Source: a bacterium (GTDB lineage: Bacteria > Zhuqueibacterota > Zhuqueibacteria > Residuimicrobiales > Krinioviventaceae). Taken from it: a stretch of 64,000 nt of DNA. The notes beneath the pieces are model-generated. The model did not search any database. It was not told the DNA's origin and saw only the letters and a program-made list of their open reading frames with translations. Each line of letters starts with the position of its first letter. Position 1 is the stretch's first letter. The stretch lies in the NCBI GenBank assembly GCA_963693055.1, contig OY843751.1, positions 3,168,001 to 3,232,000 on the forward strand. The letters are read 5' to 3'. The position numbers and the translations under genes were made by a program. Of this stretch, positions 45,979-53,455 are shown piece by piece.

Positions 45979-48009
45979 TTACCTTGTTTTTAACTGAACA
46001 ATTTCATTCAACAGGGTATCACTTGTTGTAATGATACGTGAATTTGCCTGAAAACCTCTTTGTGAGATAATCATATTTGCAAATTCTTCAGCAAGGTCAA
46101 CATTAGACATTTCAAGATTTTCAGGTGCAATTTCAGCTTGAATAGTTGAACCTGCCCAACCGCGGACAGGCATACCACTATTTGCGCCAACCTGAAAAAC
46201 ATTTTCACCAACCTGGTCAAAACCCTGAGGATTATTAACAGTTGCTACTGCAACCTGGGCAATTGTCTGACTTACACCATTGGTGAAATGACCGGTAATT
46301 GTACCAGTTTCATCAAATGAAAAGTCATAAAGTTCACCCATGCCGTAACCATCTTGCATACTGGGTACTGCAGAAGTTGTACTATTAAATTGTGTTAAAC
46401 CATTAAAATAACCCGCTTCACCAGGATCAAGAACAACTTCCATTGTGGCAGAACCATCACCCGGTTCAAAAGTCAATGGATTACCATCTTCAATCTCAAT
46501 TGCAGATAAACTACCATCAGGATTAAACTTGCAATAGCCTCTGTTACCGGCTGTTGGTTCAATTGTACCATCATCAATCGTACATTCCCATTTCCACAAA
46601 TCAGGATCAGTTAATGTTGAAATATTGGTAAATTCAATTTCCAATGTATGTGGTGTACCTTTAGAGTCATAAATCAAAATACTTGTAGTATGTACACCGG
46701 CATCCTGACCTTCAATTTGAGTATTGAATGTAGGAGTTGAAACAGAGTTGAAATTCTGGTCGGTCATACTGATAGCACATGTACGTTCAGAAACACCAGC
46801 TTCAGAATCTGATACTGTTACATTACCAGCAGAATCTATAGTAACTTCGGCTCCTGGAAAAACGGAATCAATAGCAGCTAACAAATCACCAACTGTACTG
46901 GGGTTACCCATACCGTCAGCATCTGCCTGGTAAACAAATACACCGGATTTACCATAACCTTCTTTATCAGCTCCGTTGATGTTGATTTCGTCACCATCTA
47001 CAAGTACGCCATCAAAAAATGGAACATCATTCAACGATGTTGATGAAGTTGTTCCATATTCAGTACCTGTGATACCCAAAGTTGAACCTGTATCTGAAAA
47101 AGTACCACCAATAGTTATAAAAGTATCGGCACCGCCTGTGTCAGTAGTACGGATTCTGAGATAATCCATATTATTTTCTGTTATAGATTCAGCAACAATT
47201 TCACTGGTCAACTGGCGGGTTGAATCTATCTGTTTATTGATTTCCGCTACCAACTCTTTCAATGTACCATAGGTACCATTTGTTAGTGTCAATGTGGCTG
47301 TTAAACTTTCATCAGCATCATCATCAATAGAAATCTCTATCTGATTATTGGTATCATCAATCAAAATACCATTGGGATCAGCAGCCAAAACATCTGACCA
47401 GGAATTCATACTGGTAACTGCTGCATTTTTAGAATAATCAGCAGCGAGTACTTTGGAAACTTTACTGGTATCAGAATTTAAATTACCTGTCAATTGAACT
47501 TGTGAAGTGGCCTGTGCAGGCGCTTTTTGGCCAAAAGGTAAAGCGATACTCGAAATATCTGTAGAATTGGTAAGATCGCCAGTAGCATCGGCTGTACGTC
47601 CCTGTACACGAAGACCGGTATTTCCATATACCAAATAACCGCTACTGTCTATGGTAAAATTACCTGCACGGGTAAAGTATTCCTGTTCGCCATCGCTGAG
47701 CAAAAAGAATGCATCGCCATCAATAGCGAGATCCAGGCTGCTGCCTGTACTTTGAAAATCTCCCTGGGTAAAGAGTTTATCAATACTACCGATTGACATA
47801 CCAATACCAACATATTGGGGATTCACACCACCTGTAGCTGTAGAAGGTTGAGAACCAATGGTAAGAGCTTGAGAAAGGTTTTCTTGAAAATTTACACGAG
47901 CTGCCTTGTATGCAGTTGTGTTAACATTTGCAATATTATTACCAATTACGTCTAACTGGACTTGATGATTACGAAGTCCAGAGACCCCTGCGTATAATGA
48001 ACGTAACAT
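45979..48009 (-). CDS. flgE: Hook protein FlgE (large, with central insertion)
   Basis: MLRSLYAGVSGL, IGNNIANVNT, TRAGNF, LEMSNVDLAEEF.NMI..QRGFQANSR. Confidence 0.97.
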   Translation of the reverse strand: MLRSLYAGVSGLRNHQVQLDVIGNNIANVNTTAYKAARVNFQENLSQALTIGSQPSTATGGVNPQYVGIGMSIGSIDKLFTQGDFQSTGSSLDLAIDGDAFFLLSDGEQEYFTRAGNFTIDSSGYLVYGNTGLRVQGRTADATGDLTNSTDISSIALPFGQKAPAQATSQVQLTGNLNSDTSKVSKVLAADYSKNAAVTSMNSWSDVLAADPNGILIDDTNNQIEISIDDDADESLTATLTLTNGTYGTLKELVAEINKQIDSTRQLTSEIVAESITENNMDYLRIRTTDTGGADTFITIGGTFSDTGSTLGITGTEYGTTSSTSLNDVPFFDGVLVDGDEININGADKEGYGKSGVFVYQADADGMGNPSTVGDLLAAIDSVFPGAEVTIDSAGNVTVSDSEAGVSERTCAISMTDQNFNSVSTPTFNTQIEGQDAGVHTTSILIYDSKGTPHTLEIEFTNISTLTDPDLWKWECTIDDGTIEPTAGNRGYCKFNPDGSLSAIEIEDGNPLTFEPGDGSATMEVVLDPGEAGYFNGLTQFNSTTSAVPSMQDGYGMGELYDFSFDETGTITGHFTNGVSQTIAQVAVATVNNPQGFDQVGENVFQVGANSGMPVRGWAGSTIQAEIAPENLEMSNVDLAEEFANMIISQRGFQANSRIITTSDTLLNEIVQLKTR

Positions 48010-48017
48010 TGTTATAT

Positions 48018-48100
48018 CTCCTTAAATAGAGTTCTAAAACCGCGTCTGTCATTCGGCGGTTTAGAGCCTCCCACTTGGGGTCCGGCCCTTTGAATTCAAA
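48018..48100 (-). ncRNA. Putative cis-regulatory structured RNA (flgE leader)
   Basis: GC-rich island: hairpin GGGCC-GGAC-CCC-AAGU-GGG-A-GGCUC (48064-48088), hairpin UAAACCGC-CGAAUGACAGAC-GCGGUUUUA (48035-48063), then SD AAGGAG. Confidence 0.6.
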
Positions 48101-48496
48101 TTAATTAATTACTAGTGCACTATCGATATTAGTGAACACATTTTCACGTAAACCTTCACTGTCCATGGCAGTGATCACAGTTCGATTCGCAGCACTGACA
48201 ACAAAAGCATTATTATCCATAAGAATCAGAGATTCATTTCCGCCTTTTTCAAGAATTTTGTCAATGCCGTTTTGCAATCGTATTCGGTCTTCATCAGATA
48301 ATTGAATATTTCTTTCCTGAATACGATTTTGCGCGTGTACGGAAAACTTTAGATCATCAGTTTGTTGACTGGTTTGCTGATCTAGAATTTCCTGAAAACT
48401 GGTTCCGATTTGTGCCTGAGCATTAATACTTTTCTTGATTCGCTCAGCACCTGATGGCCCTCGGATGCCAGAAATATTGTTTATGTTCTCAGGCAA
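48101..48496 (-). CDS. Flagellar operon protein of TIGR02530/Flagellar_put type
   Basis: SFQEIL, LKFSVHAQNRIQERNI, KGG.ESLILM, VVS..NRTVITAMD, NVFTNIDSA; between flgD and flgE. Start moved to TTG 48496 because the GTG at 48505 is part of the SD AGGAGGTG. Confidence 0.88.
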   Translation of the reverse strand: MPENINNISGIRGPSGAERIKKSINAQAQIGTSFQEILDQQTSQQTDDLKFSVHAQNRIQERNIQLSDEDRIRLQNGIDKILEKGGNESLILMDNNAFVVSAANRTVITAMDSEGLRENVFTNIDSALVIN

Positions 48497-48523
48497 AAAA
48501 CTCACCTCCTTTCATAATTTTTT

Positions 48524-49231
48524 TTATGCTTCAGTATCTGTATTTTCTTCACTATTTTCTGCACCACTTTCTGCTGCAGCAATTTCTAGAACTTCACTGA
48601 TAGATATTTCTGCATCGCCTACCATAAAAGTTGGGGTACCATCATTATAACGTAAACCGGTTACTGTTCCACGGAATACAGGAACAAAATTAACCTTTTC
48701 ACCATTGTCGTTATATGCTGCAACATCCATATGATACACACCTTCGCTAACTGTACCACCACCCAGGTTTGAACCATCCCAGGTTGCGGTTACTTTACCG
48801 GCATTCTGGTAATCCATATCTATTGTTTTAACCAAAGTACCATCTTCAGTGTATATGGATACAGTCACATCTGAGGCATCTTCAGCAAGTGTAAATTCGA
48901 CTTCTTTTTCACCACTTCCTGAATATATAACAGAATCTGACTGGGCAAGAATATCTTTACCAATAACCGAAGACACAATAGAGTTGTGCATTGATTGTGT
49001 GAGGTATGCGTCTGTCTCCAGTTGCTCGTTAACTGTGTATAATTGTTCTAGTGAACTAAACTGTGCTAATTGGGCTACATACTCTGTATTGTCCATGGGA
49101 TCTAGGGGATCCTGATATTTTAATTCAGTAACCATCAGGTTCAAAAAGGCATCTTTATCCATCTCACGGGATGCCGAGTTGTCTGAATTAACACTGTATT
49201 CGTAATATGTACCAACCGATGAAATTGGCAT
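48524..49231 (-). CDS. flgD: Hook cap protein FlgD
   Basis: FLNLMVTELKYQDPLDPMDN..YVAQLAQFSSLEQ, WDG. Confidence 0.97.
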   Translation of the reverse strand: MPISSVGTYYEYSVNSDNSASREMDKDAFLNLMVTELKYQDPLDPMDNTEYVAQLAQFSSLEQLYTVNEQLETDAYLTQSMHNSIVSSVIGKDILAQSDSVIYSGSGEKEVEFTLAEDASDVTVSIYTEDGTLVKTIDMDYQNAGKVTATWDGSNLGGGTVSEGVYHMDVAAYNDNGEKVNFVPVFRGTVTGLRYNDGTPTFMVGDAEISISEVLEIAAAESGAENSEENTDTEA

Positions 49232-49246
49232 AATTAACTCCTAATT

Positions 49247-52200
49247 TTATGCAAGTGTTTCATATACAGATTGAAACTCTGTATACTGTTTGTCTTGGGT
49301 TCTGCTTTTTGAAATAGCAGAATTGTTTTGATTATTTTGTTGTTCCTGTCGTTGTCTGTTAAATGCATGTTGTCTTGACATGTCTTGTTGATCCGAATTC
49401 TCTGAAGATACAATACGTAATTCCTGCACCTGAACCTGGGACTTTGATAATGATTGTCGTAATTCAGGCATTGCCTGCTCAAGCATACGTTGAGACTGTT
49501 CAGACTGTACTTTTAATACAATCTGTACATCATTGTCTTGTTTAGTTAATTCTATTCTTAACAAACCCAACTCTGCTGTTCGAGCGCTTAGAGCCAATTT
49601 CTCGTCAGTGCTACGATTTAACAACATCTCATATCCTTCATGGATCTGCTGACTGAGATATGATATTTCAGATTTGGAAGCAACAATATTTGCATTCATC
49701 TGACTTGAAAATGTAGCATTATTAACTGCTGAATTTGAAAATACTGTCTGACCTTTGAAATTTGATTGCTCAGATAGGTTCTGTTCATTAGAGCCCATAT
49801 CTTTTTGAAACTCCTCTGTCACAGCTTTTTCAGTAACCAGAGTAACCGGTTTTGCTGTCTGGGTTTGGTTAGAGTTTGATTGTGTTTTATTAACTGTTGC
49901 AGGTTTATTCTCTGAAGCTGCAACAAATACATGTTTATTTTCTACATTGTCTGCATCACCAAAAGATTTTGCTTGCGATACCGATTGTGCAAGTACCTGT
50001 TTTTGATTTGTGCTCACTTTGGGCTGTTCAACAGTCTCGGATGCAATATTTGAATTCTTTTCGTTTTTAGCTATCATACTTTCTGATATAGCTGTCTTGC
50101 CTGGGGTATCTTTGGTTTGCAACCTACTATCATCATCCTTGAGTTCTGTTTTATCAACTTCCATATTACTGGTATTGGGTACGACAGTTTTTGATTGATA
50201 CTTTTTATTCGAATCAGATTTGATTTCAGTATCACTACCTGTTTTAGCTTGAAAAGTATTTTCATCAAACTTTGTATCATCCAGTTCGTATTCAGTAACT
50301 TTTGGGTTCTGCAAAGTTGGATTACTTCCCTGACTTTTGTTCACACTAAATTTATTTACAACCTGTTGCTTGTTTGTGTTGTCTTGTTTTTCATCAACAA
50401 TAGCTGTTGATTTTTCTGCAATAACATCAGCTTTAACCTTAGATACTGGTTTGATAGCTTTATCACTTTTTTCTGATTCTACTGAAACTCTGGACTCTAA
50501 ACTCGAATTCAAATCAGTATTAATTTTTGAATTTACAAATTTATCTTTATTGGAATTGACAGTTACCGTTGTTTCTTTCTTTTGATCGACTGTATTGTTA
50601 ACAATTCCAAAAGTTTGGTTTTGAACAATATTTTTTTCAGCAGATGCAGTTGCTATGTATTCATTTCGAATTGAATCCATTAATGGTTTTGTGCTTTTGA
50701 TGGCATTATTTTTTTCTGTATGCATCTCTGGCAAAGGTTCAATAACTTTTTGATTACTTTTTTCAGTTACAACTCTTTCCGTGTTTTTATTTAAGGCTAA
50801 TATCGTTTGCTTTTCATCAAGTTGCACCTTTTCATCAACAAGCGAAATTTGACTATCATTGTTTGCAGTATTAATTTTGTCCGAAACTGTCAAAGAATTC
50901 TGAGTATCAACTATTTTATCAGAAACACGAACAGCATCAACAACAACTTTGTTTTCATTTACTTTGGCAGCAGGTTCATTCAAAGATGTTTTAATAACTG
51001 CATCATCTTTCACCTGTTTGGATTCGGTTTTAGAAACTGATGGTCCCGGTGTGGAAACTGTCTTTATTTTATTACCATCCTTAACAGTGGAATCAGTTTC
51101 AATGTTAACTGATCCATTTTTATTTTCTGCCAGGGGTGTATCAGATTGTTTCTGAGCAGCATTGTCAGACTGATTAGATTTTACAATAAATTGTTTGATT
51201 TTTGTGATCACATTCTTGGTATCAACTCCTTGATCTGCTTTTGCAACAGATTTTGCATCTGTATTTTGGGAATCAGTTTTAGCAATCTCTGGCTCTGATA
51301 AAGTCATCAGTTTCATTTCTCTTTTGGCTGTCAGCTTGTTAATTTCTGTATCGGCAAAAGTATTGGACTTGATTTCTTTAGGTATTGATTCAACTTTTTT
51401 TGAATTATTAGATGTAACAGTATCTATCTTGTTATTTTCTACTGATGCTTGTTGTTTTGCAGCTGGTTTTGTGTTCTCTGACTTTACATCATTCACAATC
51501 ACACTGGCTGTTGTATTTTTAACAGATGCAGATTGTTTTGCTGTACTCGCAGATTGTACGGATGCTTTGGTTTCAGCAACAACCTTATTTTGTACAGATC
51601 CGGATTCTTTTATAGATGGAGCGGCAATATCTGTTTTATTTTTTTTTGTATTAATAACAGTTGGTTCTAAATTCACACTATTAACAGACTTTGTTGATTT
51701 TGAATTATCAGGAACCAGAGTTTCATTTGGTTTTTCCATTTTAGCATTCCGAGTAATTGACTCGGAATTTGTCACAGTCTCTTTTTCAGTCTTTGAGGAT
51801 ACAGCTTTAGTTTCAACTTTAAAATTTTCATGGGTTTTTGCATGATTCGTAACTGTCGGGTTAACGTTTACATTTTCTGATTTACTATAGCTTACCGATT
51901 CAATAGCAGGATCGGTCATTCTTAAAGATTCTGCTTTGATCGAATTCTGACTATTATTTTGCAAACTGGTTATCAACTCATTTTTAGCAGTATCTTTAAT
52001 CTCATTTGTTGCATGCTCACCCCGAATCAGAGGTTTATTTGATGTTTGATAATCTGCTTTATTTTCAACTTTGGGAGTTGATTGCAAATTGTTTTTTACT
52101 GTGATATTATCTTGAACGGGTTTACTCTCTGCCACAGTTGTGTTTTTAGTATCGCTTGTTTTGGGGGTTTCAATTTCCGTACGTGTAACATTATCATTAT

Positions 52201-53455
52201 TTTGAACAATTGGCTTAGCGTTGTTATGGATGCGGTCAACAGCTGAAACCGTGGAAGGTTTTGCCGCTTGGTCTATTTTTTCAGGTGCCTGGGTTTGCAC
52301 AGGAGATTTTTCTGCTGTATTCTTTTCTGTCTTGACGACTTTAGCAGAAAGATCTGTTTTCTGATTATCTATTGCACTAGTCCCATTATCAAAAGATACC
52401 GGGACTTTATCCGCGTTTAAATTGCCATTCGAATTGGCTGCTTTAGCAATTGTCGCACTGGTTCGCAGAGTTTCTTGAGCTATACTGGTACGAGTGTCAG
52501 AATTTGAATCGGCTTTTACCTGGGCAATATTAGCATCACTGTGCTCTGTCACAACAGACGGATTTTTTATAGCGTTTTTTTCAGATTTTGCTTCAACATT
52601 AACTTTATTATTAGTGGCAGTAATAACATTTTCATTATTTTGCTTTTCCTGCTTTATTACAGGTATTAGATCGGATGTGTCAATATTAACTTTGGCATTT
52701 TCATGAACCAAAGTTTTACTGGTGCTCACAGCAGCATGTTTAACATGTGTATGTTTAGATTCAAGTGGTTTATCACTTTTTTCAACAGAATTCAACATTG
52801 ATACAGTTTCGACAGCTTGAGCTTTGAATTCCTCTTGTGGTTTTTCAACAATTGACACTGTATTCTTTTTAATTTCTACATTTGAATTAACTTGATGAGG
52901 CATCCCGATTATGGGTTGCGTTTCAGCGGAATTCGCATCAATTTTTGTTTTTTGATATTTTTTTACTTTTACAATATCATCAGTTACATTTTCAGTTGTA
53001 TTAGTAACTGGTTGTTCTTTACTGCTTGCCTGGTTAATGTTAGATACAGATTTCTTTTTAACATCAGTTATCGCGTTTTTTGTCGTGTTTTTTTCAACGG
53101 TACCTGTAACATCTTTGTCCATTTTTACAGATACAGATGGATTGATAATAAACTGTCTTACACGATCCTTATTTTTTGCTCCAAGCGTATGGATATTGAT
53201 GGGAGAGTCAGTATTTTTCTTGTTGTTTGTTGGTACACTAGTATCTTTAATTTTTGAGCTATCTACATTATCACCAAAAGGAGAGATATTAGATTTCTGA
53301 AAAGATTGAGTACTATTAACATTACCCAATATCTGTTTAAATATAGATTGACCGGCAGATTCAGCTTTTGCCTGTTGTTTACCGGAAAACATTTGCATCA
53401 ATCCACTGTTTTTGAATTTGCTAAATAATTTCCCGATGTTTGTCATTTGTTTCAT
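49247..53455 (-). CDS. fliK: Very long hook-length control protein FliK
   Basis: ~1270 aa K/T/S/N-rich low complexity, then C-terminal ELG.LRIEL...LEQAMPELRQSL (T3S4-like); sits upstream of flgD. Confidence 0.8.
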   Translation of the reverse strand: MKQMTNIGKLFSKFKNSGLMQMFSGKQQAKAESAGQSIFKQILGNVNSTQSFQKSNISPFGDNVDSSKIKDTSVPTNNKKNTDSPINIHTLGAKNKDRVRQFIINPSVSVKMDKDVTGTVEKNTTKNAITDVKKKSVSNINQASSKEQPVTNTTENVTDDIVKVKKYQKTKIDANSAETQPIIGMPHQVNSNVEIKKNTVSIVEKPQEEFKAQAVETVSMLNSVEKSDKPLESKHTHVKHAAVSTSKTLVHENAKVNIDTSDLIPVIKQEKQNNENVITATNNKVNVEAKSEKNAIKNPSVVTEHSDANIAQVKADSNSDTRTSIAQETLRTSATIAKAANSNGNLNADKVPVSFDNGTSAIDNQKTDLSAKVVKTEKNTAEKSPVQTQAPEKIDQAAKPSTVSAVDRIHNNAKPIVQNNDNVTRTEIETPKTSDTKNTTVAESKPVQDNITVKNNLQSTPKVENKADYQTSNKPLIRGEHATNEIKDTAKNELITSLQNNSQNSIKAESLRMTDPAIESVSYSKSENVNVNPTVTNHAKTHENFKVETKAVSSKTEKETVTNSESITRNAKMEKPNETLVPDNSKSTKSVNSVNLEPTVINTKKNKTDIAAPSIKESGSVQNKVVAETKASVQSASTAKQSASVKNTTASVIVNDVKSENTKPAAKQQASVENNKIDTVTSNNSKKVESIPKEIKSNTFADTEINKLTAKREMKLMTLSEPEIAKTDSQNTDAKSVAKADQGVDTKNVITKIKQFIVKSNQSDNAAQKQSDTPLAENKNGSVNIETDSTVKDGNKIKTVSTPGPSVSKTESKQVKDDAVIKTSLNEPAAKVNENKVVVDAVRVSDKIVDTQNSLTVSDKINTANNDSQISLVDEKVQLDEKQTILALNKNTERVVTEKSNQKVIEPLPEMHTEKNNAIKSTKPLMDSIRNEYIATASAEKNIVQNQTFGIVNNTVDQKKETTVTVNSNKDKFVNSKINTDLNSSLESRVSVESEKSDKAIKPVSKVKADVIAEKSTAIVDEKQDNTNKQQVVNKFSVNKSQGSNPTLQNPKVTEYELDDTKFDENTFQAKTGSDTEIKSDSNKKYQSKTVVPNTSNMEVDKTELKDDDSRLQTKDTPGKTAISESMIAKNEKNSNIASETVEQPKVSTNQKQVLAQSVSQAKSFGDADNVENKHVFVAASENKPATVNKTQSNSNQTQTAKPVTLVTEKAVTEEFQKDMGSNEQNLSEQSNFKGQTVFSNSAVNNATFSSQMNANIVASKSEISYLSQQIHEGYEMLLNRSTDEKLALSARTAELGLLRIELTKQDNDVQIVLKVQSEQSQRMLEQAMPELRQSLSKSQVQVQELRIVSSENSDQQDMSRQHAFNRQRQEQQNNQNNSAISKSRTQDKQYTEFQSVYETLA

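What the first reader, a model, noticed from the sequence alone, without database searches (positions are those of the whole stretch)
48010..48505. Candidate protein-RNA switch for hook synthesis: structured flgE leader behind a small RelE/DUF4258-like protein
Seen: the 91-nt spacer before flgE has a GC island (33 of 49 nt G+C at 48040-48088, hand count, in otherwise AT-rich DNA). It folds into hairpin 1 (GGGCC-GGAC-CCC-AAGU-GGG-A-GGCUC, purine internal loop) and hairpin 2 with a 12-nt loop C-GA-AU-GA-CA-GA-C (three GA at period 4), about 12 nt before the SD. There is no U tract, so it is not a plain terminator. An alternative longer stem (GAG..UCUAAA / UUUUAGA..CUC) excludes hairpin 1, which is switch-like. 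A perfect TTTGAATTCAAA palindrome follows the upstream stop. The upstream TIGR02530-type protein has no function known to me; its FSxHAxxRxxERxI...VV....TVITA pattern resembles the RelE-like/DUF4258 RNA-binding or RNase fold, behind a low-complexity N-terminus like those of flagellar export substrates. Inference: the protein binds or cuts this leader to set FlgE translation, and may be removed by export once the rod is complete, as a hook-level analogue of FlgM or FliW-CsrA. I recall similar GGAC/GAnnGAnnGA leaders at this locus in Firmicutes, but that is unverified memory.
Basis: partly seen in the sequence, partly recalled or inferred. Interest (0 to 1): 0.85.

Follow-up and report, generated by a model that had tools for sequence, protein, structure and literature searches.

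The report
RNA tag on flagellar export mRNAs
A small two-hairpin RNA fold, absent from the RNA-family catalogue, sits in front of the flagellar hook gene in many bacterial phyla, is kept or lost together with a small neighbouring gene whose protein is predicted to be an RNA-cutting enzyme, and recurs before or behind genes for other likely exported proteins, so it likely marks these messages for control by that protein during flagellum building.

Summary
The element is real. Window 48037-48088 (minus strand) holds hairpin 1 with a GGH/R 3x1 internal loop and hairpin 2 with a GA-nn-GA-nn-GA loop, 13 nt before the flgE Shine-Dalgarno. Stems covary strongly; Rfam has no match. It tracks the TIGR02530 gene: 72 of 72 gene-positive versus 0 of 41 gene-negative flagellated Bacilli genomes; 65 of 71 versus 0 of 30 in the Geomonas class; one orphan copy is a counter-example. 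Second copies lie before flagellin, rod/hook paralogues and sigma28-type genes, and 10-37 nt behind the stop of Ser-rich, often EF-hand proteins, so simple ribosome-site blocking is unlikely. The protein's model resembles RelE/ParE (Z 5-6, middling) with invariant His54 and Thr109; a 2012 paper predicted a flagellar-operon RNase of this fold. Best reading: the protein binds the tag and likely cuts there, setting mRNA fate (0.45); an export zip-code is the bold rival (0.25). Binding, cutting and export are untested. This scan noted the motif before on other genomes (7 notes); the 3-prime and flagellin copies were not in the notes shown.

The parts
48064..48088 (-). Hairpin 1: 5-bp lower stem, GGA/A 3x1 internal loop, 3-bp upper stem, variable apical loop
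   Evidence: Fold; G-G of the loop 100/100 and flanking C-G pairs 95-100/100 in alignment A4; covariation
48037..48062 (-). Hairpin 2: 7-bp stem of free sequence with a 12-nt loop carrying three GA at period 4 (48044-48055)
   Evidence: All 8 stem pairs show changes on both sides; each G and A of the loop 97-99/100 in A4 (model-selected set)
48018..48023 (-). Shine-Dalgarno site of flgE, 13 nt behind hairpin 2
   Evidence: Sequence
48101..48496 (-). TIGR02530 (PF12611) gene, 131 aa from TTG; predicted RelE/BECR-like fold; invariant F34, S52, H54, A55, R58, T109, N119-D125
45979..48009 (-). flgE, flagellar hook protein, 676 aa
48524..49231 (-). flgD, hook cap, 235 aa (context)
48089..48100 (.).
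   Evidence: Broken in L018, absent from the other spacers; 8 copies in the genome

Best explanation
The two-hairpin element is a conserved RNA structure on the hook-gene message that likely serves as the recognition site of the neighbouring TIGR02530 protein, a predicted RelE/BECR-fold ribonuclease, which likely cuts at or beside it and so would set the processing or decay of messages for flagellar export substrates. Shown: structure, covariation on this strand, co-occurrence with the gene, placement 5-prime or 3-prime of coding regions. Inferred: hairpin 1 (invariant GGH/R loop) is the docking site and the open GA-repeat loop of hairpin 2 the cut or second contact; a cut in a leader would split flgE from the long operon message, a cut behind a stop would strip the protective 3-prime end.
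For: Covariation: 88.3% of cells paired vs 71.3 shuffled, 208 double changes vs 72 (A2, 59 sequences); 89.7 vs 64.8 and 248 vs 75 in 51 sequences outside the seed but fitted to the model; in 50 disjoint nearest pairs 161 of 175 changes on the 5-prime side keep the pair (control 80 +/- 5), G-U 74 vs A-C 21. Co-occurrence: Bacilli 72 of 72 vs 0 of 41; Geomonas class 65 of 71 vs 0 of 30; own phylum 52 of 52 vs 0 of 3 with adjacent flgD-flgE; motif-first metagenome hits 60 of 63 with the gene upstream. Co-decay: four short or divergent gene copies have no motif, three others a degenerate one. Protein: the top 13 rows of the wide fold search are RelE/ParE-type toxins or Cami1, Z 4.9-5.8; invariant H54, R58, T109 (18) fit the N-terminal His and strand S/T that PMC3482391 names for BECR RNases, and that paper predicts a BECR RNase tied to flagellar operons. 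Placement on both sides of coding regions fits cleavage.
Against: Fold scores are middling and tied with type III pantothenate kinase (Z 5.8); Foldseek finds nothing at E<=0.001 in PDB or BFVD; RelE-fold proteins such as ParE are not RNases (established knowledge). No RNA data were available. G325 keeps a motif copy without the gene (71, 84, 85). Co-occurrence counts are among kin and gene and motif are usually adjacent, so one deletion could remove both. The 3-prime copies could be relics of 5-prime sites: 4 of 9 have a same-strand ORF of 100 aa or more within 250 nt, one of them a Ser-rich gene, and a fifth has a 79-aa ORF (135, 136).
Confidence: 0.45

Rival explanations
1. Export zip-code: the protein binds the tag without cutting and brings messages of export substrates (hook, rod paralogues, flagellin, Ser-rich EF-hand proteins, sigma28-type Lachnospiraceae proteins) to the flagellar export gate for coupled translation and secretion.
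For: All 18 second placements examined sit beside known or plausible export substrates, on either side of the gene: flagellin (L395), hook/rod family (L210, L224, L403), EF-hand or Ser-rich genes (L392-L394, L396-L402), five Lachnospiraceae genes, three behind sigma28-like -10 boxes. Eleven such proteins have S/T/N/Q/G-rich N-termini and no 19-residue hydrophobic stretch above 1.3. PMC4894983 passages describe RNA signals for type III export as open.
Against: That these proteins are exported is inferred, with no control set. Most substrates lack the tag: none in 32 loci around flgF/flgG-type genes, a single copy in the own genome. Many flagellated bacteria lack both parts (41 of 113 Bacilli). 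Invariant His/Thr suggest catalysis.
Confidence: 0.25
2. Translational repressor: the protein binds the leader and blocks ribosome loading on flgE until it is exported or titrated, like CsrA on flagellin leaders.
For: Median 13 nt from hairpin 2 to the Shine-Dalgarno, 2 nt in four Lachnospiraceae second copies. In some Bacilli the upstream stop codon lies inside hairpin 1, which would allow translational coupling.
Against: Gap up to 72 nt; no conserved pairing with the Shine-Dalgarno (paired with the motif above 0.3 in 19 of 100) and no conserved alternative fold (above 0.1 in 24 of 100); copies behind stop codons, five without a 100-aa ORF within 250 nt.
Confidence: 0.17
3. The RNA acts with another factor (CsrA on the GGA, a general RNase, or a metabolite) and merely travels with the gene.
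For: Invariant GG(A) in hairpin 1 recalls CsrA and RegB sites (abstracts of PMC4894983 and PMC1702504); orphan copy in G325; physical linkage can fake co-occurrence.
Against: The third base is A in 85, U in 8, C in 7 of 100 and lies in an internal loop; the motif stays with the hook gene when the TIGR02530 gene lies downstream (L210); distant second copies occur in gene-positive genomes in 15 of 16 cases checked (11 in the Geomonas class, 4 of 5 Lachnospiraceae) and in none of 71 gene-negative Bacilli-flagellated or Geomonas-class genomes.
Confidence: 0.1

Closest known systems
Flagellar-operon BECR-fold RNase predicted by Zhang et al. 2012 (PMC3482391; passages seen)
   Same: A colicin E5/D-related BECR protein consistently found with the flagellar operon in Firmicutes, proposed there to be exported or to process RNA; fits TIGR02530 in place and fold.
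   Different: No RNA target was named in the passages seen; that it is TIGR02530 could not be confirmed (the held supplement, 1,214 characters, has no hit).
FliW-CsrA-flagellin control (PMC4894983 passages; PMC6529632 search listing only)
   Same: Protein-RNA control of a flagellar structural gene, tied to export and mRNA localisation; GGA in the RNA.
   Different: Different protein fold, hook rather than filament stage, structured bipartite site with GG in an internal loop plus a GA-repeat loop, also found 3-prime of genes.
T4 RegB endoribonuclease (PMC1702504 abstract)
   Same: Small site-specific mRNA RNase that recognises GGA; a BFVD entry named site-specific RNA endonuclease is a weak structural hit (E 0.051).
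   Different: RegB cuts single-stranded GGAG with S1 help; here the site is a paired two-hairpin fold.
Termite-flg (RF01729) and flg-Rhizobiales (RF01736) motifs (PMC2864571 table and supplement passages)
   Same: Cis RNA motifs before flagellar genes.
   Different: Termite-flg is a 106-nt multi-stem fold with another consensus and does not match the locus; flg-Rhizobiales gave no Rfam match.

Membership tests
TIGR02530 / PF12611 protein family | Score over the curated cut-off; place between flgD and flgE | tested here: met
   108.1 bits vs 83.2; PF12611 46.1 vs 21.1
BECR (barnase-EndoU-colicin-RelE) fold RNases | N-terminal helical segment followed by a beta meander | tested here: inconclusive
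   Model has helices 53-61, 68-83 then strands 88-93, 96-101, 106-112; RelE/ParE best hits Z 4.9-5.9, rmsd 2.3-3.9 over 59-77 residues, tied with pantothenate kinase
BECR (barnase-EndoU-colicin-RelE) fold RNases | Conserved N-terminal His and S/T in the last meander strand | tested here: met
   H54 and T109 invariant in 110 of 110; feature as worded in PMC3482391; structural equivalence not checked residue by residue
BECR (barnase-EndoU-colicin-RelE) fold RNases | Metal-independent RNA cleavage | not testable with these tools
   Needs an in vitro assay
Type II toxin-antitoxin RelE/ParE toxins | Adjacent antitoxin gene | tested here: not met
   Neighbours are flgD and flgE in the window and in nearly all loci
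Any Rfam 15 family | Score at the gathering cut-off | tested here: not met
   0 in the window, 0 in 20 loci, best E 4.9 at the spacer
Termite-flg RF01729 | Consensus sequence and multi-stem structure | tested here: not met
   No match at the locus in 5 genomes; alignment rows differ
CsrA-bound leader | Several GGA sites in apical loops or over the Shine-Dalgarno | tested here: not met
   One GG(A/U/C) in an internal loop; apical loop carries GA repeats; CsrA site description from PMC4894983 abstract and recall
Riboswitch or conformational switch | Conserved alternative fold that controls the Shine-Dalgarno or a terminator | tested here: not met
   Alternative pairing median 0.005, above 0.1 in 24 of 100; no U tract
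Early flagellar export substrate | Disordered N-terminus plus FxxxPhi gate-recognition motif (motif recalled, from no call) | tested here: inconclusive
   Low pLDDT over residues 1-30, F34 110/110, position 38 L or F 109/110, weak FliE match in 4 of 110; export itself untested

The most novel reading that the evidence does not exclude
A dedicated RNA zip-code for flagellar type III export: a portable two-hairpin tag, active 5-prime or 3-prime of a gene, read by a RelE-fold adaptor that couples translation of tagged messages (hook, flagellin, hitherto unrecognised Ser-rich EF-hand cargo) to the export gate and is itself exported. This would give the long-debated RNA-signal idea a defined RNA and reader and predict a hidden flagellar secretome.
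Probability: 0.25. Interest if true: 0.95.

Novelty: new variant of a known kind. Interest (0 to 1): 0.84.

Why it matters
Hook synthesis has no known dedicated RNA-level regulator in the papers searched here, and TIGR02530 is a widespread orphan (2,393 clusters at 50% identity). A defined 52-nt site and a 131-aa candidate reader make an easy in vitro test. If the protein cuts, it is a domesticated toxin-fold RNase with a structured target in flagellar assembly; if it tethers, it opens a direct test of RNA signals in type III export. The tag also points to candidate flagellar cargo proteins in Geobacter-like and gut bacteria.

Tried and rejected
Single-sequence folding is not significant (z -1.39). 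DNA-level hairpin rejected by G-U over A-C bias. Promoter or terminator in the spacer: none. General flgG/flgF leader copy: 0 of 32 loci with filters off, own flgG spacer about 20 nt; only L224 had one. Weak model hits in G112, G025 and L186 lie in coding sequence and were dropped as chance; two weak Bacilli hits (G189, G219, E 0.001-0.002, other contigs than flgD) were not examined. Viral contigs: 12 pattern matches, none confirmed; one weak protein hit L111 and one unannotated phage record not followed. No PDB sequence relative; Foldseek no hit at E<=0.001; ESM Atlas gave only the family itself. A second fold of residues 47-131 without alignment was poor (pLDDT 60) and not used. The heuristic count (144 of 164 hairpin 1, 106 with hairpin 2) mis-picked some sites and was replaced by model counts. 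No RNA holder listed. Complex prediction with the FlhA cytoplasmic domain: no answer. Processed-site table of PMC4423207: no row for tags Ccel_204x or 205x, but the tags were not verified as flgE and the method may miss 5-prime-OH ends: inconclusive. Literature: TIGR02530 2 papers (1 listed, a megaphage preprint, passages seen); DUF3766/PF12611/flagellar operon protein 13 papers, listings only; flgE+RNA motif+noncoding RNA+covariation+flagell 0; flgE+UTR terms 18, listings; Termite-flg etc. 2; BECR+flagellar operon+RNase 1; listings. Main texts of PMC5737381 and PMC11109978 have no flg hit; their supplements could not be read and could hold this motif; bioRxiv supplements and most subscription papers are not covered.

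Full report
Observation. On the minus strand the window reads flgD (48524-49231), a TIGR02530 gene (48101-48496), a 91-nt spacer and flgE (45979-48009). The lone fold is not above shuffles (z -1.39). The register of hairpin 1 needs a one-base correction, the alternative stem costs 4.2 kcal/mol, and the palindrome is broken in the same genus.

Family. Gene-first, all 30 loci fetched from the own phylum showed the two hairpins by eye, and 67 of 77 loci from many phyla (record titles include Bacillota, Bacteroidota, Geobacteraceae, Cloacimonadota, Actinomycetota, Eremiobacteraeota, Fibrobacterota, Bdellovibrionota, Spirochaetia, Calditrichia) matched the model at E<0.001, 72 of 77 at E<0.1 in the spacer; five missed (36 of the 77 were in the training set of model R2). 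The seed A2 (59 sequences chosen for a short hairpin 1 and the full GA loop) has 88.3% paired cells against 71.3 shuffled, 208 double changes against 72, and covariation 0.549 against 0.08-0.21 for slid registers. A3, 51 sequences outside the seed but fitted to the model and including one chance hit, gives 89.7 against 64.8 and 248 against 75. In 50 disjoint nearest pairs of A4, 161 of 175 changes on the 5-prime side keep the pair, 151 by a change on both sides (control 80 +/- 5, maximum 96); G-U outnumbers A-C 74 to 21, so the structure is RNA on the coding strand. Conserved letters are the GG of a 3x1 internal loop with its flanking C-G pairs and the three GA; stem 2 is free in sequence. That is the anatomy of a protein-binding site. 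Rfam has no match and Termite-flg differs.

Co-occurrence. Class of a Brevibacillus genome, 151 genomes: FlgD in 113, the gene in 72, model R1 beside the gene in 68; the other four carry a divergent motif in place by R2 (E 9e-7 to 2e-3). None of the 41 FlgD-positive, gene-negative genomes has a hit at E<0.001; 12 of them fetched show nothing at E<=1. Class of a Geomonas genome, 101 genomes: motif in 65, all among the 71 with the gene, none in the 30 without (FlgD not searched there). Of the six gene-positive misses one is a fragment, three have a degenerate motif, and two have short divergent proteins and no motif, as do two divergent second paralogues. Own phylum: 50 hits beside the gene among 151 genomes searched, the last two of 52 gene-positive genomes confirmed on loci (21 seed sequences came from this phylum); three genomes with flgD next to flgE lack both. 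Motif-first, a metagenome pattern scan stopped at 119 stretches; 80 were scored, 63 confirmed (53 distinct); 60 have the gene upstream and all face a hook/rod-family gene, four seen only at its start. Kin are not independent and adjacency inflates such counts. One counter-example: Lachnospiraceae genome G325 has flagellar genes, no gene hit, no flgE leader motif, but a distant copy.

Second placements. L210 and L403 read flgD, motif, hook-family gene, TIGR02530 (L403 then a second motif), so the motif does not need the gene directly upstream. L224 has it before a 397-aa FlgG-like gene, but 32 loci around flgF/flgG-type genes had none. Five Lachnospiraceae copies abut the Shine-Dalgarno of genes outside the operon, four scanned without Pfam match, three behind sigma28-like boxes (consensus recalled). 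In the Geomonas class 12 of 65 genomes have two copies: one before flagellin behind a sigma28-like box, one before an EF-hand gene, one in the doubled hook locus, and nine 10-37 nt behind the stop of proteins with 18-29% serine; three of six scanned are EF-hand proteins. Five of the nine have no same-strand ORF of 100 aa within 250 nt; four do, so some may be relics of 5-prime sites. Stricter filters lose copies (the G168 copy was missed), so second copies are undercounted.

Protein. 110 homologues keep F34, S52, H54, A55, R58, G85, T109 and the C-terminal N-x-F-T-N-I-D. The model (pLDDT 78.5) has a disordered N-terminus, two helices and a beta meander. The wide structural search ranks RelE/ParE-type chains and Cami1 in the top 13 (Z 4.9-5.8); a second look ties RelE (5.9) with pantothenate kinase (5.8); Foldseek finds nothing significant; DUF4258 matches weakly in 43 of 110. 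PMC3482391 (passages) defines the BECR fold by these elements and a strand S/T, and notes a colicin E5/D-related RNase consistently found with Firmicutes flagellar operons, possibly exported or processing RNA; identity with TIGR02530 is likely but unconfirmed.

Mechanism. A site that works 2 to 72 nt before a Shine-Dalgarno and also behind stop codons, with no conserved alternative fold, is better read as a tag than as a switch. A toxin-fold protein with invariant His and Thr that is lost with the tag most simply binds and cuts it (0.45), changing processing or decay of messages for export substrates; binding without cutting for delivery to the export gate (0.25) or for repression (0.17) are rivals; another factor 0.10. 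That the protein binds the RNA at all I put near 0.85. Export of the protein is suggested by its N-terminus and a recalled FxxxPhi gate motif, untested. No RNA reads were available.

Novelty. No paper describing the RNA was found in the searches; two large motif supplements could not be read. The scan's own notes show the motif was seen on other genomes at least seven times; they are unchecked and not support. My tests agree with them on conservation and co-occurrence, do not support a general flgG copy, and add the 3-prime, flagellin and Lachnospiraceae copies and the 2012 RNase prediction. I class it as a new variant of protein-RNA control of flagellar genes, with a categorically new reading still open.

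Noticed in passing
window 49247-53455 (-): FliK-position ORF of 1402 aa with a long low-complexity N-terminal part, beside a 676-aa FlgE; may mean an unusually long hook. Family not scanned.
   Followed up: no
L392-L394, L396-L402: Families of Ser-rich (18-29%), often EF-hand proteins with MSIS/MISS-type N-termini in Geomonas-class genomes; candidate flagellar-secreted proteins.
   Followed up: partly
L125:528-1748, L171:1530-2324, L183:3-2042, L319: Lachnospiraceae proteins without Pfam match that share a module beginning DWR-x-M; several behind sigma28-like promoters; L168 lies in a cluster of similar unknown genes.
   Followed up: partly
L321-L327: In a divergent Bacilli group the TIGR02530 stop codon lies in the loop of hairpin 1, and the protein ends in P-I-V-T-Q-I-D instead of N-V-F-T-N-I-D; L322 (G235) has an internal TAG in the gene while the motif is intact.
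   Followed up: partly
L139, L143, L144, L146, L147, L154: In some Bacilli the TIGR02530-motif-flgE block lies away from flgD.
   Followed up: partly
L391 (G169): A spirochaete genome has a second flgD-flgE pair without gene or motif, besides the gene-linked pair with a degenerate motif (L092).
   Followed up: partly
window 48018-48031 (-): A small local hairpin (CUCU with GGAG) can cover part of the flgE Shine-Dalgarno in this genome; not a family feature.
   Followed up: partly
H1 (MT835480.1) and L111: A TIGR02530 relative in an unannotated 75-kb record of the phage collection and a weak one in a viral contig; the megaphage preprint also names one in phage G.
   Followed up: no
L125:1794-2162: ORF made of about 22-residue tandem repeats behind the second-copy gene.
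   Followed up: no
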